A program made the translations under genes and the position numbers. A stretch of DNA of 64,000 nt from an uncultured bacterium (GTDB lineage: Bacteria > Arandabacterota > Arandabacteria > Arandabacterales > Arandabacteraceae), in NCBI GenBank assembly GCA_964356335.1, contig CAYHHI010000004.1, positions 36,699-100,698 on the forward strand, in the 5' to 3' direction. Positions 34,373 through 51,165 of the stretch are shown here, piece after piece. Each line of letters opens with the position of its first letter. Position 1 is the stretch's first letter. The notes beneath the pieces are model-generated. The model was not told the DNA's origin. It did not search any database and saw only the letters and a program-made list of their open reading frames with translations.

Positions 34373-37138
34373 CTAATCCACCGGCGCTTCAACGTCCGAG
34401 CGCGTCGCGAGGAGGGCCGCCCTTGCCGCAGCAAGCCTTGCCACAGGAATCCTGAAGGGTGAGCAGCTCACGTAGTCGAGTCCTATCTTCTCGCAGAACT
34501 CTATCGAGCTCGGTTCCCCGCCATGTTCACCGCATATGCCAAGCTTTATGCCGGGTCGCGTAATCCTGGCCTTCTCCACGGCCAGCCTCATCAGGCCTCC
34601 GACACCGGCGGGATCGATGGATTCGAAGACATCGCGCTTCATGATTCCTACATCGATGTACTTTCTTACGACCGGACCCGCGTCGTCTCTGCTCAGACCA
34701 TAGGTCATCTGAGTGAGGTCATTTGTCCCGAAGGAGAAGAACTCAGCAACCTTTGCGATTTCATCCGCCGTCACGCAAGCTCTCGGTATCTCGATCATGG
34801 TGCCGATCAGGTAATCAAGGCTCAGTTTCCTCTCCTTCATCACCTCAGTCGCCACTTTCTCTGCCCTCTCTCTGATGAAGGAGAGCTCCCTCGCATCGCC
34901 GACAAGGGGCACCATGATCTCCGGTATCACCTCAAGGCCCTCAAGCGTGAGGTCGCACGCGGCCTCGATTATGGCTCTCACCTGCATGTCATATATCTCC
35001 GGGTGAGTTATGCCGAGCCTGCATCCGCGGTTACCTAGCATGGGATTAAATTCAAACAGGGCGGAACTCTTTTCAATGATTTCCTGCTTGGTGATCCCAA
35101 TTTCGCGAGCGGCGGCCTCGATCTCATCGTCCGTCTTCGGCAGGAATTCATGAAGCGGAGGATCGAGCAATCTTATCGTCACGGGCTTCCCGACCATCAC
35201 CCTGAGGATCTGTTTGAAATCCTCCCGCTGAAGCGGCTCGATTTTGGCAAGAGCCTGCCGCTTCTCGGCAGCGGTCGATGCCATGATCATCTGCCGCACC
35301 TTGTTTATTCTGCCTTCGGCGAAGAACATGTGCTCCGTCCGGCAAAGCCCGATGCCCTCGCAGCCGAAGGCCAGGGCCGTAGCTGCCTGGTCAGGCTGAT
35401 CCGCGTTAGCCCGTACCTTCAGCCTTCTGTACCCGTCGGACCAATCCATGACGGACTTGTAAAGCCCATAGATCTCGGACTCCCCCGGCGACAGCGATTT
35501 CTCAACCACCACGCGTTCGATTTCAGATCTGATGGTGGCAACCTTGCCAAGGATGACCTCCCCGGTTGTTCCGTCAATCGAGAGGTCGTCTCCTTCTTTT
35601 ATGACATGCTTGCCGATGGTCATCTGTTTATTTTCATAATCGATATTGAGGACTCCACAGCCGACAATGCACACCTTGCCGAGCTGCCTTGCCACCAGCG
35701 CTGCATGCGAAGTCATTCCTCCCCGCGCGGTCAAGATGCCCTGCGCCAGGCTCATCCCGCCAACGTCTTCGGGACTGGTGTCTTCCCTCACGAGTATAAC
35801 GGGCAGTTTCTTCACCTGAACAACGTCCCTCACCCTGGCGGAGCTGAAGACCACCTTGCCGCTTGCGGCGCCGGGGCCTGCATTCAAACCCCTTGCGATC
35901 ACCCGCTTCTCGGCTTTGGCCTTATCCTTCTCGCGGGAATCAAAGACGGGTCTCAGGATATGATTGAGCTGTTCGGGCTCTATCCTCAAGAGCACAGTCT
36001 CCTTATCGATCAGGTCATGCTCATACATGTCAAATGCGATCTTCAAGGCTGCAAGGCCGGTGCGTTTGCCCGATCTTGTCTGGAGCACCCAGAGCCTTCC
36101 CCGCTCGATCGTGAACTCGAGATCCTGCATGTCTTTGAAGTGGCTCTCGAGTTTATTACGCACGCCGAGGAGCTGCCCGTAAACTTCAGGCATCTCCTCT
36201 TCGAGGGATTTGAGACCAGCCTCGCCCCGCTGCGCCTCGTTTATGGGCTGGGGAGTCCTTATCCCCGCAACCACATCCTCCCCCTGGGCATTCAGGAGGT
36301 ACTCACCATAAAACACGTCTTCTCCGGTTGCAGGGTTCCTTGTGAAGGCCACGCCTGTCCCCGAGTCCCAACCGATGTTGCCGAATACCATTGCCTGGAC
36401 GTTGACCGCGGTACCCCACTCGTCAGGTATGTCGTTTATCCGCCTGTACTCAATTGCTCTCCTGTTATTCCATGATTTGAAGACCGCGTCGATGGCACCC
36501 CAGAGCTGGTCATAGGGGTTATCGGGGAAATCCACACCCTTCTCTTGCTTTATCATGCGCTTGAATTCGGCTACGAGATACTTCAGGTCATCGACACTGA
36601 GCTCGGTGTCTTTAGTAACGCCTCGCGCATTCTTCCTGGCATTTATGACCGTCTCGAAAGGATCTGGCGAAGTGTCATCCTCGGGCTTGAGCCCCAGAAC
36701 CACATCGCCGTACATCTGCACAAGCCTTCGATAGCAGTCGTAAGCGAAGCGCTCGTTGCCGCCGTTGGCGAGGCCCTTGACGGTCACATCATTGAGCCCG
36801 ATATTCAAGACCGTATCCATCATCCCCGGCATCGAGGCCCTCGCTCCCGACCTTACCGAAACCAGAAGCGGATTCATACGGTCACCGAAGCCCTTGCCCA
36901 TCGCCTGCTCGACCTGCTTGAGGCTCGCCAGCCCCGCAGGTTCAAGGCTCTGCGGGTACTTACCTCCATGGGAAGTGAAATAAGCACAGACTGCGGTAGT
37001 GATCGTGAATCCCGCAGGAATCGGAAGGCCTATCCTTGACATCTCCGCAAGATTCGCACCCTTCCCGCCGAGGAGATCCTTCATCGAGGCATCGCCATCA
37101 GCTCTGCCCGCGCCGAAGAAATATGTAAGCCCCTTCAT
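34373..37138 (-). CDS. ppdK: pyruvate, phosphate dikinase
   Basis: 921 aa. Its N-terminal ATP-grasp starts MKGLTYFFGAG...LLGGKGANLAEM. It has the central phosphohistidine motif GGMTSHAALVARQLG. Its C-terminal PEP-utilising TIM barrel has GICGEHGGEP. Confidence 0.95.
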   Translation of the reverse strand: MKGLTYFFGAGRADGDASMKDLLGGKGANLAEMSRIGLPIPAGFTITTAVCAYFTSHGGKYPQSLEPAGLASLKQVEQAMGKGFGDRMNPLLVSVRSGARASMPGMMDTVLNIGLNDVTVKGLANGGNERFAYDCYRRLVQMYGDVVLGLKPEDDTSPDPFETVINARKNARGVTKDTELSVDDLKYLVAEFKRMIKQEKGVDFPDNPYDQLWGAIDAVFKSWNNRRAIEYRRINDIPDEWGTAVNVQAMVFGNIGWDSGTGVAFTRNPATGEDVFYGEYLLNAQGEDVVAGIRTPQPINEAQRGEAGLKSLEEEMPEVYGQLLGVRNKLESHFKDMQDLEFTIERGRLWVLQTRSGKRTGLAALKIAFDMYEHDLIDKETVLLRIEPEQLNHILRPVFDSREKDKAKAEKRVIARGLNAGPGAASGKVVFSSARVRDVVQVKKLPVILVREDTSPEDVGGMSLAQGILTARGGMTSHAALVARQLGKVCIVGCGVLNIDYENKQMTIGKHVIKEGDDLSIDGTTGEVILGKVATIRSEIERVVVEKSLSPGESEIYGLYKSVMDWSDGYRRLKVRANADQPDQAATALAFGCEGIGLCRTEHMFFAEGRINKVRQMIMASTAAEKRQALAKIEPLQREDFKQILRVMVGKPVTIRLLDPPLHEFLPKTDDEIEAAAREIGITKQEIIEKSSALFEFNPMLGNRGCRLGITHPEIYDMQVRAIIEAACDLTLEGLEVIPEIMVPLVGDARELSFIRERAEKVATEVMKERKLSLDYLIGTMIEIPRACVTADEIAKVAEFFSFGTNDLTQMTYGLSRDDAGPVVRKYIDVGIMKRDVFESIDPAGVGGLMRLAVEKARITRPGIKLGICGEHGGEPSSIEFCEKIGLDYVSCSPFRIPVARLAAARAALLATRSDVEAPVD

Positions 37139-37244
37139 CAGAATTACACTCCTGCCTGAGGATTTTCGCGCCAGGTTCGTTATAAGGTAATACCAAACCT
37201 CGCTCCCCGCAATAGTTTTCGGGCAGCTACGGTTTGAGCTTTAG

Positions 37245-38951
37245 CTACTTAAGAATAAGCACTTTGGCCCTGCTGGTGCCGGGAACCTCAACGAAAACGA
37301 TGCCAGGCGCGATGCCGGGAAGGGCCGAATTGAGATTGATCTCGGTGAGCCCGGAAGGCCTCAGATCGAATTCACGAATAAGCCTTCCGGCAACATCGTA
37401 GATCCTCACAGGGCCTCGGGCTGGCGCGCCGGCATAACCTATGTAGAAACTCGCCCGGCAAGGATTGGGGTAGACCTCGAGTCTCGAGACTGGGATCCTT
37501 CCGGATGCAATGCCACTCGGCACATACCCTGAAGCGTCATACGCCTGGAGGATGCCCCAGCCATAAAGCGTGTCGGGATTTGATGACCGTGTGCCTGTAG
37601 CCATTATCGCTTCAGTCACATTGGCAGGCAGCCAGTTGGGGTGCTTCTCGAGAACGAGGGCAATTGCACCGGCAGTGAGCGGCGTGGCGAAGGAAGTGCC
37701 GCTCCCTCTCCTGTAACTAGTTGGGCCGGTGGTGTTAGCTATATAATCTGCCTGACCCATCGCCATGATGGTAGGCTTGATCCTTCCGTCGTAGGTTGGA
37801 CCCTGGGATGACCAAGAGGACCTCACGCCCGTCGAATCCACGGAACCGACCGTGACGACGCTGTCACCATCCGCCGGCGCCATGATGTATTTCCACTCAG
37901 AGGCGCCGGCATTACCGGCAGCGTTTACGACCACAATCCCATTCAGGACTGCTCTGTCGGCGGCGTTGGTGATGGGTGCGGTATCGCCGTCCATGTCCGC
38001 GTAGGTATACCAATCTGAGTAACACAGCGAACTGGATATTATCTGAGCTCCAAGGCTGTCCGCCCATTCGGCTGCGGCTATCCACCAATCCTCTTCAACG
38101 GGCTGCTCGTCTGCCATGTCTTCGGTTTTCGCAAGAATGTACTCGGCATCAAAGGCTGCACCCATCATCGTTCCCGGCGTATTCCCCGCGAGCAGCGAAA
38201 GACACATGGTGCCGTGATCATGTTGGCCGGACGGGTCTCCGGGCTGGTTGGCAGTGGTGTCGTCATTGTTTATGAAGTCATGCTCGGCTATCACATTGAG
38301 GTCCGTGAAGGTCTCGTGCTCCAGCCAGAAGCCGGTATCGAAGATCGCTACCTTGACACCCGTCCCCGTATAGCCCTCATTGTGGAGCTGAGGAACCTGG
38401 ATCAGGGTGAGCTGTCTCCACGCCTGGCCATACTGGTAAAGAGCTCCGATGCCCTTCTCCGAAGCGTCCCAGGTCACAGGCTCGGGAGATCCCGCTTTGC
38501 CGCTCACCCTCCGCAAAGATTTCACGAAGGGAAGGCCGGCGATATGTTCTATCTGGTCGCGCGTAGCAACAATGCTAGCGGCATTGAGCCACCTGGAGAA
38601 AGTTCTGAACTCCACACCTTCGGCCTTCAGGGCATCGATGTAAGGTTTGTAGAGCGGGAGATCGGATTCGTCAAAGGGCTGCGCGGGCCGTGCCCTCAGA
38701 CGCCTCTCCACGGCCCTGGGATCATAGGATGAGGCGATCTCGCTAAGCCGTGCCTGGACTTCATTCAGAGCATAATCACCCTTGTCCCTGAAGAAAACCC
38801 AGACCACAAGCTCATCCCCGCTCGGAGCAGTCTTGAGCCATTCACTAACCGAGGGTGAGACCCCTGTGAGGCCGAAAGAAGGCGTTCCGAGAGTAAAGGC
38901 AGTGAAGACAAGAGCCATAACTGAAAGTGGAATCAATTCACGTGGCTTCAT
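37245..38951 (-). CDS. secreted subtilisin-like serine protease (S8) with C-terminal T9SS-type sorting domain
   Basis: Its catalytic triad contexts are FDTGF (Asp), HGTMCLSLLAGN (His) and GTSFATPLTAGAIAL (Ser). The signal peptide is MKPRELIPLSVMALVFTAFTLG, and the ATG at 38951 has AAAGGAG upstream. The C-terminus is APGIVFVEVPGTSRAKVLILK. Confidence 0.85.
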   Translation of the reverse strand: MKPRELIPLSVMALVFTAFTLGTPSFGLTGVSPSVSEWLKTAPSGDELVVWVFFRDKGDYALNEVQARLSEIASSYDPRAVERRLRARPAQPFDESDLPLYKPYIDALKAEGVEFRTFSRWLNAASIVATRDQIEHIAGLPFVKSLRRVSGKAGSPEPVTWDASEKGIGALYQYGQAWRQLTLIQVPQLHNEGYTGTGVKVAIFDTGFWLEHETFTDLNVIAEHDFINNDDTTANQPGDPSGQHDHGTMCLSLLAGNTPGTMMGAAFDAEYILAKTEDMADEQPVEEDWWIAAAEWADSLGAQIISSSLCYSDWYTYADMDGDTAPITNAADRAVLNGIVVVNAAGNAGASEWKYIMAPADGDSVVTVGSVDSTGVRSSWSSQGPTYDGRIKPTIMAMGQADYIANTTGPTSYRRGSGTSFATPLTAGAIALVLEKHPNWLPANVTEAIMATGTRSSNPDTLYGWGILQAYDASGYVPSGIASGRIPVSRLEVYPNPCRASFYIGYAGAPARGPVRIYDVAGRLIREFDLRPSGLTEINLNSALPGIAPGIVFVEVPGTSRAKVLILK

Positions 38952-38970
38952 GTGCGCTCCTTTCTCTAGG

Positions 38971-38976
38971 ATTATA
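38971..38976 (-). promoter_or_regulatory. -10 element (TATAAT) for the S8 protease gene
   Basis: On the minus strand it reads gtagTATAATcctagagAAAGGAGcgcacATG. The direct repeats lie upstream of it. Confidence 0.4.
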
Positions 38977-39003
38977 CTACGATTTCGGCCCGGGCTCAAG
39001 GCT

Positions 39004-39168: not shown

Positions 39169-39711
39169 TCAAGCCTTAAGGGGTTCGAAGTTAACGAAGT
39201 CAGCGTGATGGACTATTATGGCCTCGGTTGTGCGCTTCCCGAGATCGCCTTCTTTGGAATGATAGGCAATCATATGGAGTACTTCATAGGGAAGCCCATG
39301 CTTGTACGCAAGTGCCTGGCCCGAGAAGGGGTGTCTCAGAAGAGTTCCTACCTTGCTCTTGCCGATCTTCTTGCCCTGCTTCGCATACTCGAGGAGCTTC
39401 CCGACATCGTGCAGAATCGCCCCGGCGATCAGAAGATCCATATCCAGATCGATCGCACGGCCATAATTCCTGGCGAGATTCTCCGCTATGCTTATGGCGG
39501 TCTGAGTGACCGCTCTGGTATGGTGAATCAAGTCTATCTTGGTATCGGGAATCAGAAGCGTGAACGGTATCATGCGGAGGTCTTCAGGCTTCCAGCCTCC
39601 CGATTCAATCGCATCCTGCCATGCAGACGCAACCCGCATCCGCAGGTCAGCTTTCCTTATCAGCTTGATCTCCGGAATCAGCTGGTTTACCGACCGGACA
39701 CCGTGTTTCAC
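39169..39711 (-). CDS. HD-domain phosphohydrolase
   Basis: It has the HD motif LIAGAILHDVGK and the distal His in IVHHADF. The probable GTG start at 39711 overlaps the upstream gene's TGA (GTGA), and the longer ORF to 39858 would overlap that gene by 150 nt. Confidence 0.7.
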   Translation of the reverse strand: MKHGVRSVNQLIPEIKLIRKADLRMRVASAWQDAIESGGWKPEDLRMIPFTLLIPDTKIDLIHHTRAVTQTAISIAENLARNYGRAIDLDMDLLIAGAILHDVGKLLEYAKQGKKIGKSKVGTLLRHPFSGQALAYKHGLPYEVLHMIAYHSKEGDLGKRTTEAIIVHHADFVNFEPLKA

Positions 39712-40631
39712 GTCTTCGCTCCTTTGCTCTTCTTTCTGCAGATGCCGATTCCAAGAATCCTGCCGATGTTCGCCTTGCTGTCCAAATCGGGAATGATAGA
39801 GCCCCGTGAAGAGGTCATGATGGTTGTAACGCCCGGGCCATGACCCGAGAGCACGCAATCGGAATGAACCACGACTCCAATCGTGATAGCACCTCTCCTG
39901 TACATCCTCCCGAAAGTGTGGTCCGCGTCTTTAATGGCGACGACGTCTCCTAGATTGATGCCGCCGAGGCCCTCACGCTCAACCGTTCTCGGGTCCAGGA
40001 GCTGGATATCGTAATCTCCTGAGTGCGCATGAACCTTGCCTATGCCGGAACCCATCAGCGCCGACGGGATGATGTGGGAAACCCCGACCTCGATCTTGTT
40101 CTTCACAATGCTGACGTTCATCCGCGAGAGCACGTCAGGATCAAGATTCATGAGCTTGATATCGTCAAATCCCTCGATCGCGAGCCCGGTCCCGAAGGCC
40201 TTGATCAAGATATTATCGCCGATTGCAAGCTTCCCGAGGGTCTTATCGTCGAAATCCACCAGAACATGCTCAATCCCGCCGTGCTTGCCCGTCACAACAC
40301 CTCGTGAACCCTTGGCGTCCCCACTTATGACCAGGGCTCCGTTACCAATCGCGGCAAGTGTGTTCAGAGCTGCGTTGGCGCTTCTTGTGCCTTCCTTGGC
40401 CGACATGTTCTTGACGCTCACGCCAGGCTCGACATGATCAGCAACCCACCCACACGCGGGATGCCCGACCTTGATGTTATATGTTATGCCCCCTGTTCCC
40501 GGCAATATGACGGGATTTCCCGTGGAGCCGATCCTGTAGCCGGTCTCGGTCATGGTAGGACTTGCGACCTGCCCCGCGACTGAAAGCATGACGAGGTTCT
40601 GCCGATTGGTTCTAATCACTTGTTCGCCCAT
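39708..40631 (-). CDS. conserved hypothetical protein, glycine-rich beta-helix-like (possibly DUF4438-like, ~300 aa)
   Basis: It has repeated G-x-G-x-x-G-x-V units such as ISGDAKGSRGVVTGKHGGIEHVLVDF and GDNILIKAFGTGLAIEGF. It is wedged between the aminotransferase and the HD gene with 1-nt and 4-nt junctions. The ATG at 40631 is preferred over the TTG at 40652. Confidence 0.5.
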   Translation of the reverse strand: MGEQVIRTNRQNLVMLSVAGQVASPTMTETGYRIGSTGNPVILPGTGGITYNIKVGHPACGWVADHVEPGVSVKNMSAKEGTRSANAALNTLAAIGNGALVISGDAKGSRGVVTGKHGGIEHVLVDFDDKTLGKLAIGDNILIKAFGTGLAIEGFDDIKLMNLDPDVLSRMNVSIVKNKIEVGVSHIIPSALMGSGIGKVHAHSGDYDIQLLDPRTVEREGLGGINLGDVVAIKDADHTFGRMYRRGAITIGVVVHSDCVLSGHGPGVTTIMTSSRGSIIPDLDSKANIGRILGIGICRKKSKGAKT

Positions 40632-40632
40632 G

Positions 40633-41967
40633 CTATGCTCGCCCCTTTTCAACTTTAAGTACCGCCCTCTGGAACATGTCGAGGGCCATGTCGGCTTCCC
40701 GCCTGCCGATAACCAGCGGTGGGATGAATCTTAGGGAGGATGGCCCACAGGGAAGAATCAGAAGGCCAAGCGAGAAGCATGTGTCAACAATCTTGGTTCT
40801 CATCTCGGGGGCCGGCTTCATTGTCGCCCTATCCGCGACGATCTCCATGCCGATCATCAAGCCCTTCCCGCTGAGTCGCCCTATCGCCCGGCTCTTCTTC
40901 TGGATCGCCCTAAGGCGCTTCATGAGATAATCGCCCATTGCGGCCGCATTTTCAACTAAACCATTTTCGAGAAGTCTTATGGTCTCAAGACTGGCCGAGC
41001 AGGACACGGGATTCCCACCGAAGGTACTGCCATGGGCTCCGGGCTCCCACGTCATCAAACTCGCAGGAGCAATCATTGCTCCCAGCGGCAGCCCTGAAGC
41101 CACTGCCTTGGCAACGGTGATGATATCCGGGACGACATTCCAGTGCTCGATGGCGAACATCTTGCCGGTCCTGCCGAGGCCCGACTGGATCTCATCGCAG
41201 ACGAAGAGGATGCCGTATTTCTCTGCGAGCGTCTTGAGTTTGGGGTGAAACTCCGGCGGCGGCACAACGTATCCACCCTCACCTTGAATCGGCTCAACAA
41301 AGATCGCTGCAACTTCATCGGGCGGCAGAGTGCGTTTGAAGAGCGTGTCTTCAATGAACGAGACACACGCGATATCACACTTGCCATACTTGAGATTGTA
41401 TGCGCAATGCGCGCAGTCGCCGTAGGGCACGTGGACCACTCCCGGCATCAAGGGGCTAAAGCGGGCGCGCTGGCTCTCCTTGCTGGCCGTGAGCGCCATC
41501 GCCCCCATGGTTCTTCCGTGGAAGGCGCCAAAGAAAGATATGAAATACTGCCTGCGCGTGGCGTGCCTGGCGAGCTTTATGGCAGCCTCGATCGCCTCTG
41601 CACCCGAATTGCAGAAGAAGACCTTCTTGGGTTTCCTGCCCGGCGCGATCGATGCGAGCTTCTTAGCAAGCATTATCTCCGTCTCGTAGTAGAAATCCGA
41701 GCCCGACATGTGCAGGAATTTTCTTGCCTGCTCCTCTATCGCTCTGACCACCTGGGGATGACTGTGTCCGGTGCAGGTCACCGAGATGCCGGAGGTGAAA
41801 TCAAGAAACGCATTACCATCCACATCCCATACGTACGCGCCCTTGCCATGATCCATAATGAAGGGATAGCCCCGCGTGTACGAAGGGGAAATGTACTTCT
41901 TGTCGAGCTCAAGAAGCTTCTTGGCGCGCGCGCCTACACGTGATATACCCATCCTCTGTCTGACCAC
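40633..41967 (-). CDS. class-III pyridoxal-phosphate aminotransferase (second copy in window)
   Basis: It has DEIQSGLGRTGKMFAIEHW and TVAKAVASG (PLP-Lys). It uses a GTG start with AGGA 6 nt upstream. Confidence 0.85.
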   Translation of the reverse strand: MVRQRMGISRVGARAKKLLELDKKYISPSYTRGYPFIMDHGKGAYVWDVDGNAFLDFTSGISVTCTGHSHPQVVRAIEEQARKFLHMSGSDFYYETEIMLAKKLASIAPGRKPKKVFFCNSGAEAIEAAIKLARHATRRQYFISFFGAFHGRTMGAMALTASKESQRARFSPLMPGVVHVPYGDCAHCAYNLKYGKCDIACVSFIEDTLFKRTLPPDEVAAIFVEPIQGEGGYVVPPPEFHPKLKTLAEKYGILFVCDEIQSGLGRTGKMFAIEHWNVVPDIITVAKAVASGLPLGAMIAPASLMTWEPGAHGSTFGGNPVSCSASLETIRLLENGLVENAAAMGDYLMKRLRAIQKKSRAIGRLSGKGLMIGMEIVADRATMKPAPEMRTKIVDTCFSLGLLILPCGPSSLRFIPPLVIGRREADMALDMFQRAVLKVEKGRA

Positions 41968-42053
41968 GCTGAATCCTCATACCTGATGAGATGCGGGCTG
42001 TCTCGAAGATCAAGGATACTCTTAGGCGGATCAATTCTAACGCACGAGTTTCC

Positions 42054-43538
42054 TTATCTTACTACAACAAACCTTCCCGTCCTGCTGCTTCCCCCGGCGT
42101 CGACCCTGTAAATGTATATCCCGCTTACCACCTGCTTACCGTCACTGTCCCTGAGGTTCCAATCAGCTGAGCCCTTCTGCGTTTCGTTGTCGATATTGAA
42201 GCCGGGCCTGACCGTATCTATGTAACCTCCGGATGCATCATATATCCTTATGGTTGCCTTTTCGGGTACATTCACGAACTGCAGCTTGGCCTCCCCCTGC
42301 TCCCAGCCAGCCCTGAAACGATAAGGATTGGGAACCACAAAGACATCGTCGACTGTTCGACCCTTCGGAGAGGCGGTCGGATACACCTCAGTCCAGTTTA
42401 TCGGACTCATGATGAGTTCATAACCGCTAGACCAATCGTAGGTCACGACAGCGTAATCATAAGGGAAGCCATTGAGCAACACATAGGCACTTGGGTCAGG
42501 CGTGACGCCACGCCCGCTGGCCCTTATGCCCTTGTCAATGAAGTACCTCTCACCGCCAGGATCCTGCTTGCCGAATGAATCTGCAAAGAATCCGGGATCC
42601 TCACAGCGCCTCTTATCCACAGCCACCTTATACTGGCCCACGGGATCGCTGGACGTGGGGGGCCTATCTTCAACAGACCGGCGCAGAACCAGATACCCTT
42701 CAAAGGTGGAGGCCTTGATCTTGAATGCATCGGCCGGAGGATTGTCGCCTGGGCCCGCCTTCCCGAAGGGTATCCTGACATCGACCGAAAAACTCCGACC
42801 TACCTGGAACTGCCCCGCCGGGAAGGAGACCCTCAGCCCCTTGCTCACCCCGACGCTCTGGCCCGACCGCTCGACCACGATCGAACTATCTTCACCAAGA
42901 CTGGCTGCCGACCAGCTGAGAGTGATCGCGGCATTTCCTTCGGGGCCGAGCTCGCCCCCAGAGACACACGTGAACTCAAGGACCACTACTGTGTCCGCGA
43001 GTCTCCCACCTCTGTATATGCCGTCAAAAGTGGGAATGGGACAATCCTGCCAACCTTCGGGATGAAACCTGAATAGGCTGTAAGAAGGGATTGATATCTT
43101 TATGCCGTCTGAAAGGTCATAGTCATGATCGGTCGAATCCACCGTGATTGTCTTTTCGCTTTGGGACTTAGTATTCCAGTCACTCACGTACAACCAGGAA
43201 AGAAGCACCCGATCGGGAGTGGAACTCACGGTGATATTGTAGTCATGATCACAGGCTCCAACATAAAAGCTTTCATCGCTCACGGTTATAGTCGCTTTGC
43301 CTCTCCACGGGGTCTCACGTGTACCCAGCGACGGCTGGTAAACAAAAACCAGGCTTTCAGGCTGAAGATCCTTCCACTGAATCTTCACTATCCTGCCGTC
43401 GCTACGGGTGGTATCGCCTTCAGTGATATTCACAATGTGTGGCGCTTTGAGAGTGATGCCTGCCCCACAGACGCTAACGCAGAGAAGTAAGCACCCAAAC
43501 CAAAGTGCATAGACAAAACGCCTCCCGCCCTTCTGCAT
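42054..43538 (-). CDS. secreted hypothetical protein with C-terminal T9SS-type sorting domain
   Basis: Its signal peptide is MQKGGRRFVYALWFGCLLLCVSVCGAG, from the ATG at 43538 with GGAGG upstream. Its C-terminus is VVPNPYRF...IRIYDASGGYID...SGIYIYRVDAGGSSRTGRFVVVR. Confidence 0.6.
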   Translation of the reverse strand: MQKGGRRFVYALWFGCLLLCVSVCGAGITLKAPHIVNITEGDTTRSDGRIVKIQWKDLQPESLVFVYQPSLGTRETPWRGKATITVSDESFYVGACDHDYNITVSSTPDRVLLSWLYVSDWNTKSQSEKTITVDSTDHDYDLSDGIKISIPSYSLFRFHPEGWQDCPIPTFDGIYRGGRLADTVVVLEFTCVSGGELGPEGNAAITLSWSAASLGEDSSIVVERSGQSVGVSKGLRVSFPAGQFQVGRSFSVDVRIPFGKAGPGDNPPADAFKIKASTFEGYLVLRRSVEDRPPTSSDPVGQYKVAVDKRRCEDPGFFADSFGKQDPGGERYFIDKGIRASGRGVTPDPSAYVLLNGFPYDYAVVTYDWSSGYELIMSPINWTEVYPTASPKGRTVDDVFVVPNPYRFRAGWEQGEAKLQFVNVPEKATIRIYDASGGYIDTVRPGFNIDNETQKGSADWNLRDSDGKQVVSGIYIYRVDAGGSSRTGRFVVVR

Positions 43539-43578
43539 ACATACCTCCAGCCATAGAAACGCGATGTATTTCCTGAGA

Positions 43579-45837
43579 CTAGAAAGCCCTGGGCTTCCCT
43601 TCATCGAATAATTCCAAGAGATTCCGTATCAGAGTCTTGACCTCGTCGTGGTTGAAGAACCACGGAGGGATTCCGATATAGGCTGCATACCCCCGCCCCG
43701 TCTTGCTATCGCCAGGAACATACACTCCAATCCACTTACCCTGCAACCTCATGCCAGAGGGGGTCATGATCTCCCTCCCGCACTCTGGATCTCCTATGCG
43801 CTGCCCCTTATCATTGACCGGTACAACCGAGTAAATCGGACGGACATCGATACTGTCATCGTATCTAAGCTCTGTTATGTAAAAAGCATTGTCAACTCTG
43901 CCCGGCCAGCCGGCGACACCAGGAATCCGATCTGTTGTGACGGGATCCCAGTACTGCGTTGTGTCATCCAGAGGCTTCGCTGTATACTTAGTTGTACACG
44001 GGTACATGGTCTTGAAGCTAACCCTGGGATTGCCGATCAACATCTTCGCTATTCCGAACGTCTCCCAGTTGAAGTTGTAGATCAAGGTTGAGTCAACGGG
44101 GTTCACCCTCGGGGTGAAATCCAAGCTGGTCTGGGAACCTCTGGTTCCGCGAGGAGGCGTCTTGTCGGGCCAGAACATGCAGGAGTAAATCGGATCCAGA
44201 CCTATCACGATTATATTCCCGCCAACCTTGACGTAGGAATTGAGGTAATTGCCCCTGTTGAAGCAAACCTCGGTGAGATGAATATCTGGGCTCTCTGTAT
44301 CTTGATCAGCAAGCCAGATCACGGTTGAGGCATCCGCCACCCGCCTGATCGGCACCTCGTTCTTGTAATCGCTGCCCGTATCAAACTCCTGCCAATTGTA
44401 ACCCTTGAGGATATCGGCCCACAGGCTGTCACTGGCTCGTTCATAGTAGAGGTAGGGGTTTCCCAGCCACTTGGCATGATCGTCGTCAACAAGATAAATG
44501 AACTTCTCCTTGCCTCGAGGGCCTTTGAGCACCTCCAAGCGAAACTCACAATGGCTTGTATCTCTATTCAGGTCTCTGAGCTCGACAACAAAGTTGTGAG
44601 TACCAAGACTGGGAATAAACGGTTTGCCGTCCGAGGGATATCTCACGAGCCACTCGACACCTGTTGTCCTTTCCCTGAGAGGGTCGACACTGGTCCAGTA
44701 GTTCCATGTTGACGTTGCGGGATCTTCAGAATCGTCGAAGTAATAACGACATGCAGCCACCAGTTTCCCCTGGCTCCGATCCTCAGACCCCCAGAACTTG
44801 AACGATACGGGCGTACCCTCAAACAACCCGGCAACATTGCTCAAATACCCTTGCCTGTCGTCGCTCGACCTCACCCCCAATGCGCCTGCATCAATGTTGG
44901 TGGTGACACCCGCACCCTGAGTGATGACGAGCAACCTGACCCAATTATTGTCGCTGTTATAAGTTCCATAAAGAGACTTGGGCAGCACAGCACCACCCTC
45001 GTCCTTACAGGTGACAAACGCCATCACCTTCTCTCCCTTAACTGCATAGGTAGAGAGATTGAGGTCCTTCACGTACGTGCAGTCTGCCGGAACCCACTCA
45101 CTCCAATAACTGACTGCAGGCGCCGCATAGGGCTTGTGCCTAGGGTCGGTGTCGACCACGTCGAGACTGTCTAACCGCGACGCAGTCCCGGGAGGTGTCG
45201 GCCATTTGCCGCCGGGCAATTCCTTCTCAGGAATGAGAATATACTTGAAAAGCATCTTCGAAACATCGCCATCCGAGTCCTCTCCACGCCACTCGATATA
45301 AACGTGAGGAGGAGAGAGACAGGGGACAGTCGGTATCTTCACTGGAATCGTTATCTTTGCCTTAGGAAGCACATTGGACGCCTGAAAGAAAACACTGGCT
45401 CCTGCAGAATCCACTGCCCCATCATTGTCAAGAGCCCTGACGATTATGCCCCAGTAGGAGAGGCCAAATCTGACAGTACCCACAGAAGAACAGCACGAAT
45501 CGGCCGTAACCACAAAAGTGCTTTCGGTTCTTGCAGTCTCAGCCCACTCGAGCTTATCGCGATCAAGATTATCAAGCGCTTCCCTGCTCAGGCCCTTGAC
45601 AGTCGCCACTTCATACCTTGCAATGGTCCCGTCCTCATCCGTACCGTACCAGTATGCTTGAACCTTGAAATAGGTCCTTGCTTCCTCCTTCGGCCCGAAA
45701 GAGATGAAGGTGTGCGGGGGGATATTGGTTACTCTTGTTCCGCCAGCCTTTTCGCCGCAGCCGCAGAACAAGAGTGCGAGACAGCATAATGCAATCCAGA
45801 CGATGCCAGCCGAGCCCGTGTACTTCCTGGTACTCAT
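43579..45837 (-). CDS. large lipoprotein, hypothetical (mosaic; shares its N-terminal repeat domain with the next gene and a central domain with the 1105-aa protein)
   Basis: It has a signal plus Cys-rich lipobox-like LLFCGCG. It has repeated PxxxFxWxGxDxDGxVxxYxY units. The segment FIYLVDDDHAKW...DASTVIWLADQD...GGNIIVIGLD parallels LLVDGHGRNLYDW...DYDAVVWFTGP...SGCVVLCGD in 47623..50940. Its ATG overlaps the upstream stop (ATGA). Confidence 0.6.
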   Translation of the reverse strand: MSTRKYTGSAGIVWIALCCLALLFCGCGEKAGGTRVTNIPPHTFISFGPKEEARTYFKVQAYWYGTDEDGTIARYEVATVKGLSREALDNLDRDKLEWAETARTESTFVVTADSCCSSVGTVRFGLSYWGIIVRALDNDGAVDSAGASVFFQASNVLPKAKITIPVKIPTVPCLSPPHVYIEWRGEDSDGDVSKMLFKYILIPEKELPGGKWPTPPGTASRLDSLDVVDTDPRHKPYAAPAVSYWSEWVPADCTYVKDLNLSTYAVKGEKVMAFVTCKDEGGAVLPKSLYGTYNSDNNWVRLLVITQGAGVTTNIDAGALGVRSSDDRQGYLSNVAGLFEGTPVSFKFWGSEDRSQGKLVAACRYYFDDSEDPATSTWNYWTSVDPLRERTTGVEWLVRYPSDGKPFIPSLGTHNFVVELRDLNRDTSHCEFRLEVLKGPRGKEKFIYLVDDDHAKWLGNPYLYYERASDSLWADILKGYNWQEFDTGSDYKNEVPIRRVADASTVIWLADQDTESPDIHLTEVCFNRGNYLNSYVKVGGNIIVIGLDPIYSCMFWPDKTPPRGTRGSQTSLDFTPRVNPVDSTLIYNFNWETFGIAKMLIGNPRVSFKTMYPCTTKYTAKPLDDTTQYWDPVTTDRIPGVAGWPGRVDNAFYITELRYDDSIDVRPIYSVVPVNDKGQRIGDPECGREIMTPSGMRLQGKWIGVYVPGDSKTGRGYAAYIGIPPWFFNHDEVKTLIRNLLELFDEGKPRAF

Positions 45838-47405
45838 CTTCCGCCTCCCGACGAGTTTGTACTCGAAACAAACACAGAATCACGCATTGAGTCAGACCTG
45901 GTCAACAAGTAGTCGCCGTTATACGCCTCGAGCTTGAACCTGTGCCACCCCGACGCAAGTCCTTCAACCTCAACCCCCGGCACGTACAAACCCTGCCTGT
46001 CCTTAGCAGTCACCTGTATCCAGGGACCATCATCAACTTTGTATCGGTATGTGACAAGGGCTTGCTCGCCACTGCTTCCCCGGTTGATATCCTGATCCAC
46101 GTCACGACATTTCCAGTCGAACTTCACCTTTCCTGGGCCAATGACCATGAGGGTATCCCAGGTTATCACCGGCGCATAGTTCACCTTGAAGGTGAAGAGA
46201 GCAGGAGTGCCGTCCACCTTACCCAAGTCGTCCCTTGCTCTCACCAGCAGGGCTAGCTCGTAATCTGTATCAAGATTGGGGTTGTTCTGGCCTGTGGCAG
46301 TTACGTCACAGAAGGCTGTGTCGCACGGCGTCCCTACCCAAGGCTGCTTCGGGTCGGCACCAGATTGGATCAGAGTGCCTCGGATGCTCCATCTAAACGA
46401 GTCTGGACGTGCCCCATCTTTATCCCAGCCATGGAACCTGAACCGTAACTGGCCGAAGTGGTACGCGACCGCGGTCGTGTCGCTCGGGTAGATCTGCTTC
46501 TCGGCAAGAGGAATGCCGCCCTGACCACTTTGACCTGACCCCCTGAATGTCCAAACGCCATCGATATATGTGTTGGGATCATAGTTTACGACAAACCTTG
46601 CGATCTTCTCATCACTCTTTGCACCGGCATCGTCCACGGCGACCAGCCTGAACTCATGGAAACCCAGCCAGACATCGCTGCTTTCGATTATGCAAGGCCA
46701 ATACCTGTACTCCGTGCTGTGGGTCTCAAAGGGGACTGTGACCTCATTGCCCGAGTCAAGCCGATATCTCCATTCTTGTACGGATCCATCAGGGTCGCGT
46801 CCTTGCCAATCAAATCTTACCACTATCGGCGGAGTGGTCATATCGCAAGGACCGGGATACCTGAGGTTGATCGCAGGAATCGTGTCGCCTTTATCCGGAG
46901 GGACGCGAGGAATAGTATCGATGCTGCTTGATATGAGAACTTGGATCTCGGGAAGAGCGTAGTCAATAGCCATGAAGTTGGTCGCTGCGGGCTTCGGATC
47001 TGCCTTGCCCTCGTTATCGACGGCAGCAACGTATAGGCTGTGACTTCTCGAATTGGGCCTGTCAGCTCGAAACACAAAGAGGCTCTCTGTAGCGTCCGTG
47101 GTTCTCCAGGGAAGACTCAAGAGATACTGGTCAATGTCCTCCTGGTTCCTGAGCCCACTGTATAGCTCATCCTCAGATACTGATGCCACCCTGTATGCCA
47201 CAACCACACCGTCTTCATCGTATCCCGTCCAGTGCACGAGGTACTTATGGAAAACCTTGTCGTCCATGCCCGGCGCAACCGAAAGTACGGTCTCGGGAGC
47301 AGTATTCTTGTCATATCTTGTGACGTTCTCCTCCTCGCAACCGACGAGGCCTATGAGGCCCAGCGCCACTGCAAAACCCACGAGGAGGCTCCTTCTTGTC
47401 ACCAT
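45834..47405 (-). CDS. lipoprotein with four tandem WxGxDxDG beta-sandwich-like repeats
   Basis: It has lipobox LVGC. The ATG at 47405 has GAGGAG 7 nt upstream. Its repeats include HWTGYDEDGVVVAYRV, FDWQGRDPDGSVQEWRYRL, FRFHGWDKDGARPDSFRWSI and FDWKCRDVDQD...YRYKV. Confidence 0.6.
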   Translation of the reverse strand: MVTRRSLLVGFAVALGLIGLVGCEEENVTRYDKNTAPETVLSVAPGMDDKVFHKYLVHWTGYDEDGVVVAYRVASVSEDELYSGLRNQEDIDQYLLSLPWRTTDATESLFVFRADRPNSRSHSLYVAAVDNEGKADPKPAATNFMAIDYALPEIQVLISSSIDTIPRVPPDKGDTIPAINLRYPGPCDMTTPPIVVRFDWQGRDPDGSVQEWRYRLDSGNEVTVPFETHSTEYRYWPCIIESSDVWLGFHEFRLVAVDDAGAKSDEKIARFVVNYDPNTYIDGVWTFRGSGQSGQGGIPLAEKQIYPSDTTAVAYHFGQLRFRFHGWDKDGARPDSFRWSIRGTLIQSGADPKQPWVGTPCDTAFCDVTATGQNNPNLDTDYELALLVRARDDLGKVDGTPALFTFKVNYAPVITWDTLMVIGPGKVKFDWKCRDVDQDINRGSSGEQALVTYRYKVDDGPWIQVTAKDRQGLYVPGVEVEGLASGWHRFKLEAYNGDYLLTRSDSMRDSVFVSSTNSSGGGR

Positions 47406-47558
47406 AAGCACACTCCTCAATCCTGCGTGATTAAGTTCCTTGCGTCTAAGGAATTTGTGTCTATGCTACAGCATAGCTGGCCCCACGATAAGACACAGCC
47501 GAGAAACTATAACAACGCATTCCTGCCTTGTCAACACCAAAACTGGTCAAGCCTGGGC

Positions 47559-50600: not shown

Positions 50601-50940
50601 ACTTGAAGCAGTTGGTGATGAACGGTGCTACTGTTCCGCATGTATCACCGACTCCTCCCTCCACGCACCAGGTCTGGGTAGGACCGGGCCCACCCGTCGC
50701 CTCACCACCGTGTCCTCCAAGCGGATCGCCAGGGCAGCGGGTACTATTAGCATGTACCTCTACCCATGTCGTATTTCCCGCCTGGACCATCACGAATGGC
50801 ATGGCTAAGGGCATCCCTCCCACCGCGTTAGCGGGCGGCAGAAGCGGCTTTGCCGGTTCCTGCATACCTAGTGCAACGGAGGCGAGCCCCATTACAAGGA
50901 CCCCCACTGCCACGATAGATACTGCTCTAAATCTCATCAT
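47623..50940 (-). CDS. very large secreted protein with a ThuA/class-I-glutamine-amidotransferase-like central domain and C-terminal T9SS-type sorting domain
   Basis: Its signal peptide is MMRFRAVSIVAVGVLVMGLASVALG, from the ATG at 50940 with GGAGGG upstream. Its central segment is GQKILLVDGHGRNLYDW...DYDAVVWFTGP...ADSGCVVLCGDRLAY. Its C-terminus is SGVYFYKMEADKYSAVKKMLVVK. Confidence 0.65.
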   Translation of the reverse strand: MMRFRAVSIVAVGVLVMGLASVALGMQEPAKPLLPPANAVGGMPLAMPFVMVQAGNTTWVEVHANSTRCPGDPLGGHGGEATGGPGPTQTWCVEGGVGDTCGTVAPFITNCFKYVDIRSLPSQTNVNYWHVDSYRTVPAPGGYTGTRALWCGSAAVWGAPPGKPVECGTWINPPGYGNQWNCIVELDLPSSFNVAGGCTLYFDPRYDTECKYDYLYVDYQQGVAGPPATTAWVTLAMFNATSNNPGGVCGAPSKPNPDNWGNTDVNRLANCNWQQRGTPGIPAYMGVITPAMWGTVTNAPKIRFRFKSDGAWSDMDGRGDTDGAAFVDNVWMVGDAGSAYTQDFELCSVFGALPQYWSLQQPSGVAQGWHLVHDPDPPYEGGDGGARTTCLLDSSWVWRARPENAFPPGSPQRQGFFYRLLTPKVKLANTGCIVQYDEFMCGKDITCDYTDTQVRFYDKVNQTWCPWINIDGYIMYGGCFFWNFDDWDNVTQFYGANNDSMQFGFDLLDTSNPGDMCYGKHKDTENLIDNVSIGFFDGTATQFSARGIDILHDTFFPQVAQAYNSFFDTYETDTLNKYSGASPPAPILPKGQQLYINCTDKNNLASVKIKASITNGATWIEKTMTLAVPADPLNLALGGEYYGTVQAGDFSPGAIAWTVGSEILYYVLAQDNLGNQAYFPARADPKNSAHNWTKDDYWGFSILPIVAPGVGEGQKILLVDGHGRNLYDWSPCLTDLDNTMPLEDIYERTLADAGYCYYDKFDISGAGSNQHIHPITFSDYDAVVWFTGPYFSNYLFDKEAQLALRAYLADSGCVVLCGDRLAYDMATQAEGGNGEDSLGGEFLNGIMGTDYLKEMEAGFTLPFVYMDAAATVNVRGSAVNIPTTALDTVVIYRECPYLKDMSYVLTSPSPKPGYTAQQFLRVTNPIGVPLADGAIYTEYQNGKGRCVYVNFDLCATVNHARTLCTGVTPAPAPDFAPGYYFGRVELLRTILYNLFGIVPNAMANVPGPTSPVAYVWGLRQNGPNPLSTGTKIDFEVASASKVSIKVYNAMGQLVQVLKDEQMKAGKHSVAWDGKNQVGERVSSGVYFYKMEADKYSAVKKMLVVK

Positions 50941-51165
50941 GGTCCAAACCCTCCGATGCGAAACTCGTTGCTGGCCAGTCTCCTGACTGACCATAGTACC
51001 CAAAGGGAAATCACTTGTTGTCGGACAGGTTCTTTCCCCACGCGGCAAACGGAAAATCGGAGGTACTTAAATCACTACAGCGTGTCTCCGTCTCACCCCC
51101 TTCCTTCAGCGAAGATCGCTGCAACCTTCAATCCACAATTGACACAATCACCCTACATCCGCCTA

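What the first reader, a model, noticed from the sequence alone, without database searches (positions are those of the whole stretch)
39169..41967. Translationally coupled aminotransferase / glycine-rich DUF / HD hydrolase operon
There are three minus-strand genes with 1-nt and GTGA junctions. They are a class-III aminotransferase, a ~300-aa protein with repeated GxGxxG beta-helix-like units that I can only loosely place as DUF4438-like, and a small HD phosphohydrolase. The tight coupling implies a shared pathway, possibly an amino-sugar or aminophosphonate modification. I cannot assign it.
Basis: partly seen in the sequence, partly recalled or inferred. Interest (0 to 1): 0.5.

Follow-up and report, generated by a model that had tools for sequence, protein, structure and literature searches.

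The report
Aminotransferase, DUF4438 and HD gene string
Three tightly packed genes are really there, but comparison with relatives shows that only the unknown-function DUF4438 gene and the HD hydrolase gene travel together, and only in this bacterial lineage, so this is an ordinary lineage-specific gene string and not a recognisable new pathway.

Summary
The gene calls are confirmed. On the minus strand lie a class-III aminotransferase (40633-41967), a full-length DUF4438/TM1086-family protein (39708-40631) and a 180-aa HD-domain protein (39169-39711). They are joined by a 1-nt gap and a GTGA overlap.

The aminotransferase is closest to Pyrococcus PH1423, an ornithine/lysine omega-aminotransferase (48% identity). 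The HD protein is closest in fold to the HD domain of the exoribonuclease YhaM, but it has no OB domain.

I compared 168 DUF4438 loci. No neighbouring gene family is shared across DUF4438 lineages. The HD partner is found only in the window's Eisenbacteria-like clade. Within that syntenic block the aminotransferase is missing in three of eight species, and close HD homologues in Zixibacteria stand alone.

My reading is a conserved DUF4438-HD pair with an optional aminotransferase placed in front of it, not a three-step pathway. The amino-sugar and aminophosphonate ideas find no support.

One weak lead remains. Unrelated DUF4438 loci carry a lysine 6-transaminase or proC nearby, which hints at ornithine/lysine-derived cyclic imines. 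The function of DUF4438 remains unknown.

The parts
40633..41967 (-). Class-III (fold-type I) PLP aminotransferase, 444 aa, GTG start. It belongs to the PH1423/TK2101-like omega-aminotransferase family (NF004426/PRK05769).
   Evidence: Pfam PF00202 E 6.5e-123. NCBIfam NF004426 scores 616.6 bits against a cutoff of 552. The best solved relative is 7VNO (P. horikoshii PH1423), E 6e-124 and 48% identity over 428 aa, with the TVAKA lysine motif aligned. PH1423 and TK2101 are listed as ornithine delta/omega-aminotransferases in PMC9986279. The identical product is called on an NCBI contig.
39708..40631 (-). DUF4438 / TM1086-family protein, 307 aa, ATG start. The fold is built of small beta-barrels and the function is unknown.
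39169..39711 (-). Stand-alone HD-domain metal-dependent hydrolase, 180 aa, GTG start. Invariant H64, H101-D102, H127, H151 and D171 are consistent with a two-metal site.
40632..40635 (-). AT/DUF4438 junction: TAG stop of the aminotransferase (40635-40633), one spacer base (40632), then the ATG of DUF4438 at 40631. AAGGGG lies 8-13 nt upstream of the ATG.
   Evidence: Read directly from the sequence. TAA-g-ATG, TGA-g-ATG or ATGA occur at the same junction in L001, L092 and L002.
39708..39711 (-). DUF4438/HD junction: GTGA, in which the GTG start of HD overlaps the TGA stop of DUF4438. AAGGAG lies 7 nt upstream.
   Evidence: Read directly from the sequence. An overlapping start/stop is kept in L001-L005, L092, L093 and L094, with ATG, GTG or TTG as the start.
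41968..42053 (-). 86-nt gap between the upstream 516-aa gene and the aminotransferase. It is the only plausible place for a cluster-specific promoter, but none was detected.
   Evidence: Gap measured. The sigma-70 and terminator scan finds nothing in the gap and no terminator after HD. No Rfam family matches anywhere in the window.
42054..43604 (-). Context: upstream 516-aa protein with no Pfam domain. It is the constant left-hand neighbour of the block, and it abuts DUF4438 directly in the species that lack the aminotransferase.
   Evidence: No Pfam hit. tblastn synteny in L001, L002, L004, L005, L006, L092, L093 and L094.
34373..38999 (-). Context: right-hand neighbours of the block, a subtilisin-like S8 peptidase (37245-38999) and pyruvate phosphate dikinase (34373-37138). 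The peptidase is itself absent in L092.
   Evidence: PF00082 E 6e-42. PPDK domains are annotated in the relatives and synteny holds.

Best explanation
This is a lineage-specific, probably co-transcribed gene string in an Eisenbacteria-like bacterium. It is not a dedicated three-enzyme pathway.

Its stable core is a two-gene module, DUF4438 followed by a small HD-domain hydrolase. The HD start codon overlaps the DUF4438 stop. I infer that the two are made together and probably act together in this clade.

An omega-aminotransferase gene of the PH1423/TK2101 type sits in front of the pair in some species and has been lost from, or never entered, that position in others.

Inferred from family membership: the aminotransferase uses PLP to move the terminal amino group of ornithine, lysine or an omega-amino acid onto 2-oxoglutarate. 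This gives glutamate plus a semialdehyde, which for ornithine and lysine cyclises to P5C or P6C.

Shown here: DUF4438 has the TM1086 fold built of small beta-barrels.

Inferred: its unusually conserved His/Asp/Glu/Cys set suggests a metal-dependent catalytic or binding site. The crystal contents of TM1086 suggest that it works as a large homo-oligomer.

Inferred from motif and fold: the HD protein is a two-metal phosphoesterase whose nearest structural relative is the nuclease domain of YhaM.

The substrates of DUF4438 and of the HD protein are not established.
For: - Gene identities and junctions.
- Synteny across nine related loci is up752 - up516 - [AT] - DUF4438 - HD - [S8] - PPDK. The aminotransferase is present in the window, L001, L002, L005 and L092. 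It is absent in L004, L006 and L093/L094, where up516 abuts DUF4438.
- Loci with and without the aminotransferase interleave in a DUF4438 neighbour-joining tree; for example L093 pairs with L005.
- DUF4438 and HD are adjacent with an overlapping junction in every clade locus that reaches it.
- Outside the clade, clustering the neighbours of 168 DUF4438 loci finds no family shared between DUF4438 lineages. S26e, a CBS protein, a CDP-alcohol transferase and dihydroorotase recur only inside the Bathyarchaeia-type lineage.
- About 25 other contexts are all different.
- An HD-family profile finds no HD in any non-clade DUF4438 locus.
- Zixibacterial HD homologues (61-65% identity) sit alone, in front of a TrpB-like gene and Thi4.
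- Aminotransferase family.
- Folds.
- TM1086 crystals hold 5 and 30 chains per deposited entry, more than 1 MDa in the asymmetric unit (PMC2661377).
Against: - Tight overlaps with conserved Shine-Dalgarno sites are what a functional operon looks like, and the aminotransferase junction (1 nt or ATGA) is also kept wherever the gene is present. Co-function of all three in the species that have them cannot be excluded.
- Two unrelated DUF4438 loci put it next to enzymes of the same chemistry: lysine 6-transaminase 800 nt upstream in L007 (TIGR03251, 686 bits against a cutoff of 521), and proC 15 nt downstream in L152/L163. That is more than I would expect by chance.
- All clade loci share inherited synteny, so the constancy of DUF4438-HD is one evolutionary observation, not eight.
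- Transcription was not measured, and no promoter or terminator was found.
Confidence: 0.6

Rival explanations
1. A real pathway centred on omega-transamination of ornithine or lysine. The aminotransferase would make glutamate or aminoadipate semialdehyde (P5C/P6C). DUF4438 would be a still-unrecognised enzyme acting on that semialdehyde or cyclic imine, or supplying the diamino acid. The HD protein would carry out an accessory hydrolytic step.
For: - The aminotransferase is nearest PH1423, an ornithine/lysine omega-aminotransferase.
- Independent contexts touch the same chemistry: L-lysine 6-transaminase upstream of a 57%-identical DUF4438 in L007; proC 15 nt downstream in L152/L163; proB/proA 3.4-5.8 kb away in Fonticella; DapF and a class-I/II aminotransferase flanking it in L009; and an Ldh_2-family gene beside it in L162.
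- DUF4438 has an enzyme-like set of invariant His/Asp/Cys residues.
Against: - Three of eight clade species lack the aminotransferase at the locus.
- About 140 Bathyarchaeia-type loci, and the Thermotoga, Zhenhengia, Caloranaerobacter, C. nigeriense and Scalindua loci, show nothing of the kind.
- Amino-acid genes are common, so a few such neighbours among about 30 contexts are expected by chance.
- L007 is a relative within the same superphylum: its TrpB-like protein is 75% identical to a zixibacterial one.
- The DUF4438 fold has no known cofactor-binding or redox module.
- The HD protein has no obvious role in this chemistry.
Confidence: 0.15
2. DUF4438 plus HD form a split nucleic-acid-processing enzyme. 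The HD protein would be a YhaM-like phosphodiesterase that lacks YhaM's OB domain. The beta-barrel oligomer DUF4438 would supply substrate binding. The aminotransferase would be an unrelated passenger.
For: - DUF4438 is co-directional, about 35-39 nt upstream of ribosomal protein S26e in 95 loci, and sits near aminoacyl-tRNA synthetase genes in Thermotoga, L030 and L058.
Against: - DUF4438 occurs without this HD in every lineage but one.
- The same HD occurs without DUF4438 in Zixibacteria.
- Ribosomal and synthetase neighbours are confined to inherited synteny or are single cases.
- No nucleic-acid-binding motif was identified.
Confidence: 0.1
3. One reading: an amino-sugar or aminophosphonate modification pathway using the aminotransferase and the HD hydrolase.
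For: - PbfA (a lyase with a class-III aminotransferase fold) and PhnZ (an HD oxygenase) both act on 1-hydroxy-2-aminoethylphosphonate.
- The aminotransferase gives a sub-threshold hit to the PbfA model.
- The HD protein has the six-ligand H/HD/H/H/D pattern, which the PhnZ-type enzymes also have according to my own knowledge of that family.
Against: - The PbfA model scores 287.7 bits against a cutoff of 525, whereas NF004426 passes its cutoff.
- No NCBIfam PhnZ hit was found.
- No phosphonate gene (phnW/X/Y, pepM) and no sugar-nucleotide gene was identified among the neighbours I scanned.
- The aminotransferase is dispensable at the locus.
Confidence: 0.03
4. Mere adjacency: the three genes are independently expressed and the tight junctions are a by-product of genome compaction.
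For: - Short overlaps are common between same-strand bacterial genes.
- The whole 14-kb block is one long run of minus-strand genes with several overlaps.
Against: - Start/stop overlap leaves no room for an internal promoter or terminator.
- The DUF4438/HD overlap and its Shine-Dalgarno site persist across the clade despite roughly 30% protein divergence and changes of start codon.
Confidence: 0.05

Closest known systems
Pyrococcus horikoshii PH1423 (PDB 7VNO) and Thermococcus kodakarensis TK2101, ornithine delta/omega-aminotransferases of the PRK05769/NF004426 family
   Same: The window's aminotransferase has the class-III fold-type I sequence family over its full length. It is 48% identical over 428 aa, passes the NF004426 cutoff, and its PLP-lysine motif aligns.
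   Different: It is bacterial rather than archaeal. Its substrate range is untested; the same family also holds amino-acid racemases (9WQZ, 9WRF) and an epimerase (4YSN) at 285-334 bits. Here it is fused into a string with DUF4438 and HD, an arrangement I found described in no paper.
Thermotoga maritima TM1086 (PDB 3N99, 3DCL), the structural-genomics representative of Pfam DUF4438 + DUF4438_C
   Different: In Thermotoga the gene is followed by a rhomboid protease and Trk genes, with no aminotransferase or HD nearby. No function has been published for either protein.
HD domain of the 3'-5' exoribonuclease YhaM (PDB 9H3F)
   Different: The window protein is 180 aa and has no OB-fold domain. Sequence similarity is marginal (E 0.05). 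Nuclease activity is untested.
Lysine 6-transaminase / P5C reductase route to pipecolate or proline (LAT + ProC)
   Same: This is the chemistry suggested by the neighbours of DUF4438 in three unrelated contexts: the PH1423-like aminotransferase here, LAT in L007 and proC in L152/L163.
   Different: No locus has the full set. DUF4438 has no assigned step, and most DUF4438 loci lack any such gene.

Membership tests
Class-III aminotransferase (Pfam PF00202) | Full-length match above the Pfam gathering score | tested here: met
   410.8 bits against a cutoff of 30.5, covering profile positions 10-403 of 403.
NF004426 / PRK05769 (PH1423-type omega-aminotransferase family) | Score above the NCBIfam equivalog cutoff | tested here: met
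   616.6 bits against 552. Every other NCBIfam model listed (the best 25 of 69 hits), including argD, GABA-AT, putrescine-AT, racemases and PbfA, falls below its own cutoff.
NF004426 / PRK05769 (PH1423-type omega-aminotransferase family) | PLP-binding lysine in the conserved VAK motif | tested here: met
   Query ITVAKAVASG aligns with 7VNO VTVAKALGGG.
NF004426 / PRK05769 (PH1423-type omega-aminotransferase family) | Activity on L-ornithine or L-lysine with 2-oxoglutarate | not testable with these tools
   Only inferred from 48% identity to PH1423. Racemases of the same family are also close.
PbfA (1-hydroxy-2-aminoethylphosphonate ammonia-lyase, NF049939) | Score above the model cutoff | tested here: not met
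   287.7 bits against 525.
DUF4438 / TM1086 family | Both Pfam domains (PF14505 and PF20999) above cutoff, in order and full length | tested here: met
   181.9 bits against 24.9 and 151.8 bits against 27, covering residues 32-168 and 171-293.
DUF4438 / TM1086 family | TM1086 three-dimensional fold | tested here: met
   There are zero GxGxxG and only two GxGxG. The closest hits after 3N99 are small closed barrels. The model has long strands and five helices.
HD-domain metal-dependent phosphohydrolase superfamily (PF01966) | Pfam match above cutoff and conserved H...HD...D metal ligands | tested here: met
   54.5 bits against 22. H64, H101-D102, H127, H151 and D171 are invariant in 28 homologues.
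YhaM-type 3'-5' exoribonuclease | N-terminal OB-fold nucleic-acid-binding domain joined to the HD domain | tested here: not met
   The protein is 180 aa, almost all helical (two 4-residue strands) and has no OB domain. Only the HD domain matches.
PhnZ/TmpB-type HD oxygenases | Specific sequence or fold similarity beyond the generic HD core | tested here: not met
Conserved functional gene cluster (operon kept across lineages) | The same partners next to DUF4438 in independent lineages | tested here: not met
   No shared neighbour family across 14 DUF4438 lineages in 168 loci. HD is a neighbour only in the window's clade. The aminotransferase is missing in 3 of 8 clade species.
Anti-phage defence systems (PADLOC) | Match to a defence-system protein model | tested here: not met
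   Nothing for the aminotransferase or DUF4438. The HD protein gives only weak, generic Cas3-HD similarity (E 2.6e-6 or weaker).

The most novel reading that the evidence does not exclude
DUF4438 is found in Thermotogae, Clostridia, Bathyarchaeia, Planctomycetes and the Eisenbacteria-like clade, with 45-59% identity between the window protein and its bacterial and archaeal homologues outside its own clade. The most novel reading is that it is an unrecognised metal-dependent enzyme of ornithine/lysine metabolism. It would act on the semialdehyde or cyclic-imine (P5C/P6C) products of omega-transamination, and in this clade it would work as a stoichiometric pair with a YhaM-like HD hydrolase. This window would then be the context that first ties the family to a substrate class.
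Probability: 0.1. Interest if true: 0.6.

Novelty: new member of a known kind. Interest (0 to 1): 0.27.

Why it matters
As it stands this is routine. All three genes fall into known families, and the arrangement is a clade-specific piece of synteny.

Its modest value is as a lead for DUF4438. That family comprises 788 clusters at 50% identity. A crystal structure has existed since 2008 (PDB 3DCL is listed in PMC2661377, 2009), but no function has been published.

The work here yields three usable points:
- DUF4438 has no universal operon partner.
- It has one stable, translationally coupled partner, the HD hydrolase, in one clade.
- It sits next to ornithine/lysine omega-aminotransferases or proC in three unrelated contexts.

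These observations turn 'unknown' into two cheap, testable hypotheses.

Tried and rejected
- **Literature.** Searches for DUF4438, PF14505, PF20999, TM1086, 3N99 and 3DCL found only a crystallisation-methods table; other hits were unrelated uses of the same strings.
- **Beta-helix idea.** Rejected by motif count and fold.
- **Domain fusions as a clue.** The long DUF4438 representatives are one tandem duplication (P0361) and truncated chimeras with fragments of sulfatase, SAM synthetase or clostripain. These are probably assembly or gene-call artefacts and are not informative.
- **Riboswitch or leader upstream of monocistronic clostridial DUF4438 genes.** No Rfam hit at those positions. No Rfam hit anywhere in the window.
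- **Defence-system role.** PADLOC was negative.
- **Plasmid-borne copies with annotation.** None found.
- **Radical-SAM genes next to DUF4438 in L007 and L136.** The two proteins are unrelated to each other.
- **Membrane or lipid theme** (rhomboid, Rce1-like, DAGK, CDP-alcohol transferase, Caroten_synth neighbours). Each is confined to one lineage, so I did not pursue it.
- **Promoter and terminator scan.** Uninformative; hit counts were within 1.1 sd of the shuffle means.
- **AFDB fold search.** The library was unavailable.
- **Context look-up for the window's own protein.** It returned nothing.
Full report
**What is in the sequence**

The region 39169-41967 holds three co-directional minus-strand ORFs:
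- a 444-aa protein at 40633..41967, with a GTG start;
- a 307-aa protein at 39708..40631, with an ATG start;
- a 180-aa protein at 39169..39711, with a GTG start.

Read on the minus strand, the first junction is GCA-TAG-c-ATG, a one-base spacer. The second is GAC-GTGA-AAC, a start/stop overlap. Shine-Dalgarno-like GAGGA, AAGGGG and AAGGAG lie in front of the three starts.

Exactly these three products are on record as called genes on one 124-kb NCBI contig. The nearest named relatives are Candidatus Eisenbacteria MAGs. The flanking genes are T9SS-tailed secreted proteins, S8 and M28 peptidases, PPDK and a sigma-54 activator, which is consistent with that placement.

**The three proteins**

- **Aminotransferase.** It is a full-length class-III enzyme (PF00202, E 6.5e-123). 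It passes the NCBIfam model NF004426/PRK05769 (617 bits against 552). It fails every other listed model, including argD, GABA aminotransferase, putrescine aminotransferase, the racemases and PbfA. Its best solved relative is 7VNO, P. horikoshii PH1423 (E 6e-124, 48% identity over 428 residues, PLP-lysine motif aligned). PMC9986279 lists PH1423 as an ornithine delta-aminotransferase that also accepts L/D-lysine and, less well, 5-aminovalerate, 6-aminohexanoate and GABA. It lists TK2101 as the T. kodakarensis counterpart.
- **Middle protein.** It is a firm DUF4438 member, not a loose one. Both Pfam domains score highly (E 5.9e-54 and 1e-44). It matches TM1086 (PDB 3N99/3DCL) at E 2e-79.
- **HD protein.** It has the HD domain (PF01966). 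H64, H101-D102, H127, H151 and D171 are invariant in 28 homologues. This is the ligand pattern of two-metal HD enzymes (my knowledge of the superfamily).

**Folds**

The strict motif GxGxxG does not occur at all. The protein is simply glycine-rich, at 14.7%.

**Is the trio a conserved unit?**

I collected 168 DUF4438 loci:
- 80 from a one-genome-per-species collection;
- 80 from metagenomes;
- the rest from exact-protein look-ups (the look-ups came after the count and were examined separately).

Searches with the window's aminotransferase and HD proteins, and with an HD-family profile, find them next to DUF4438 only in the window's own clade, where DUF4438 is 70-74% identical.

De novo clustering of all neighbours finds no family shared between DUF4438 lineages. 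Ribosomal protein S26e, a CBS protein, a CDP-alcohol phosphatidyltransferase and dihydroorotase recur only within the Bathyarchaeia-type lineage, which is inherited synteny.

Every other context differs:

| Locus or organism | Genes next to DUF4438 |
|---|---|
| Thermotoga | rhomboid protease |
| Zhenhengia | Rce1-like protease |
| Caloranaerobacter | unknown 547-aa protein and a lipid kinase |
| C. nigeriense, Fonticella | monocistronic |
| Scalindua | protoglobin |
| L120 | adenylate kinase |
| L030 | PfkB kinase |
| L159 | short-chain dehydrogenase (SDR) |
| L027 | Pyr_redox_2 and DUF1667 |

**Inside the clade**

tblastn with seven window proteins shows one syntenic block: up752 - up516 - [AT] - DUF4438 - HD - [S8] - PPDK.

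- The aminotransferase is present in the window, L001, L002, L005 and L092.
- It is absent in L004, L006 and L093/L094, where the 516-aa homologue abuts DUF4438.
- The S8 peptidase is missing in L092.
- Loci with and without the aminotransferase interleave in a rough DUF4438 neighbour-joining tree. This suggests repeated loss, or gain, of the aminotransferase.
- DUF4438-HD is constant. Its overlapping junction is kept, with ATG, GTG or TTG starts, in all eight loci that reach it.

Conversely, HD homologues at 61-65% identity in Zixibacteria stand alone in front of a TrpB-like gene and Thi4.

My conclusion is that DUF4438-HD is the stable module in this clade and the aminotransferase is facultative. 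The constancy of the pair is a single inherited observation, not several independent ones.

**Other lines of evidence**

- The family has 788 representatives at 50% identity with E 1e-3 or better. Nearly all of the 150 best-scoring ones that are listed with lengths are single proteins of about 285-300 aa or shorter fragments.
- The few long representatives are a tandem duplication or truncated chimeras, so there is no Rosetta-stone clue.
- No paper in the library discusses the family's function.
- TM1086 crystals carry 5 (3DCL) and 30 (3N99) chains, more than 1 MDa per asymmetric unit (PMC2661377). This hints at a large homo-oligomer.
- Thirty-eight homologues share 62 invariant columns, including many His, Asp, Glu and Cys residues. 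To me this looks like a metal or active site, but that is inference.
- There are no Rfam elements, no defence-system signal and no plasmid copies.

**A lead worth recording**

Three unrelated contexts place DUF4438 beside enzymes of one chemistry:
- the PH1423-like ornithine/lysine omega-aminotransferase in this window;
- a bona fide L-lysine 6-transaminase (TIGR03251, 686 bits against 521) 800 nt upstream in L007;
- proC (TIGR00112) 15 nt downstream in L152/L163.

Fonticella has proB/proA within 6 kb.

By my rough estimate, two class-III omega-aminotransferase neighbours among about 20-30 independent contexts is more than chance would give. Against this, amino-acid genes are common, most loci show nothing of the kind, and L007 is a Zixibacteria-like relative. 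I rate this rival at about 0.15.

A second rival builds on the YhaM-like HD and the RNA-binding-type barrels. It proposes a split nuclease. It rests on weak fold scores, and I rate it at about 0.1.

The aminophosphonate idea fails the PbfA model cutoff. PhnZ is only a distant HD match. No sugar or phosphonate gene was identified among the neighbours I scanned.

**Verdict**

This is a real, tightly packed and probably co-transcribed string. It consists of a known-family omega-aminotransferase followed by a conserved DUF4438-HD pair, and it is specific to one lineage.

It is a new member of known kinds. It is of modest interest, mainly as a handle on a structurally solved but functionally blank family.

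Noticed in passing
window 42054-47420 (minus strand): Three large proteins (516, 752 and 528 aa) with no Pfam domain. Their ends overlap by 26 nt and 4 nt. The 752-aa type recurs as two to three paralogous copies per locus in every related genome (L001, L002, L005, L093). A 1141-aa protein with a T9SS sorting tail lies just upstream (47623-51048). This looks like a clade-specific family of secreted or surface proteins of unknown function.
   Followed up: partly
L009-L080 and L095-L172 (Bathyarchaeia-type loci); example L045:8914-9225: In 95 loci DUF4438 is followed, on the same strand and about 35-39 nt downstream, by ribosomal protein S26e (named by me from the representative sequence, not checked against a family model). 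It is flanked by a divergent CBS-domain protein (Pfam-confirmed in L075) whose C-terminus carries cysteine pairs that look like a zinc ribbon, and by a convergent CDP-alcohol phosphatidyltransferase. The arrangement is strongly conserved but confined to one lineage.
   Followed up: partly
L152:5552-6349 and L163:1327-2124: Pyrroline-5-carboxylate reductase (proC, TIGR00112, 271 bits) lies 15 nt downstream of DUF4438 in gut-metagenome contigs whose DUF4438 is about 82% identical to a Peptostreptococcaceae MAG protein. An unannotated 117-aa gene follows it.
   Followed up: partly
L007:1454-2893 and L007:3709-4593: L-lysine 6-transaminase (TIGR03251, 686 bits) lies 800 nt upstream of a DUF4438 gene, on the same strand, in a Zixibacteria-like MAG. 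A radical-SAM gene, an ABC transporter and a TrpB-like gene lie downstream. The 800-nt spacer holds only short antisense ORFs.
   Followed up: partly
L086-L090, just upstream of position 7001: Zixibacterial homologues of the HD protein are preceded by a 145-935-nt stretch with no called gene (L088 has a 56-aa ORF inside its gap). They are followed by a TrpB-like PLP enzyme (NF009057) and Thi4. The gap was not examined for a regulatory RNA.
   Followed up: no
L075 (Candidatus Acidoferrum MAG): This bacterial MAG carries DUF4438 in the Bathyarchaeia-type context, with a CBS protein on one side and a CDP-alcohol transferase on the other. That suggests either bin contamination or a transferred block.
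   Followed up: no
P0361 (636 aa, from the representatives search): A protein made of two complete DUF4438 units in tandem. It is the only apparently real multi-domain form seen. Other long forms are truncated chimeras with sulfatase, SAM synthetase or clostripain fragments.
   Followed up: partly
window 38971-38999 (minus strand): The best sigma-70-like match in the region (TTGAGC, 17-nt spacer, TATAAT; 10 of 12 positions) lies in front of the probable ATG start of the S8 peptidase gene, inside the longest ORF from TTG 38999. This suggests the peptidase has its own promoter, so a transcript could end after the HD gene without a recognisable terminator.
   Followed up: no
window 41143-41943 (+), 39205-39843 (+), 35150-36475 (+): Long antisense ORFs (266, 212 and 441 aa) lie inside the aminotransferase, HD/DUF4438 and PPDK genes. 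I take them to be shadow ORFs of GC-rich coding sequence, not genes. Antisense ORFs also clustered across loci in my neighbour analysis (clusters 1 and 6).
   Followed up: partly
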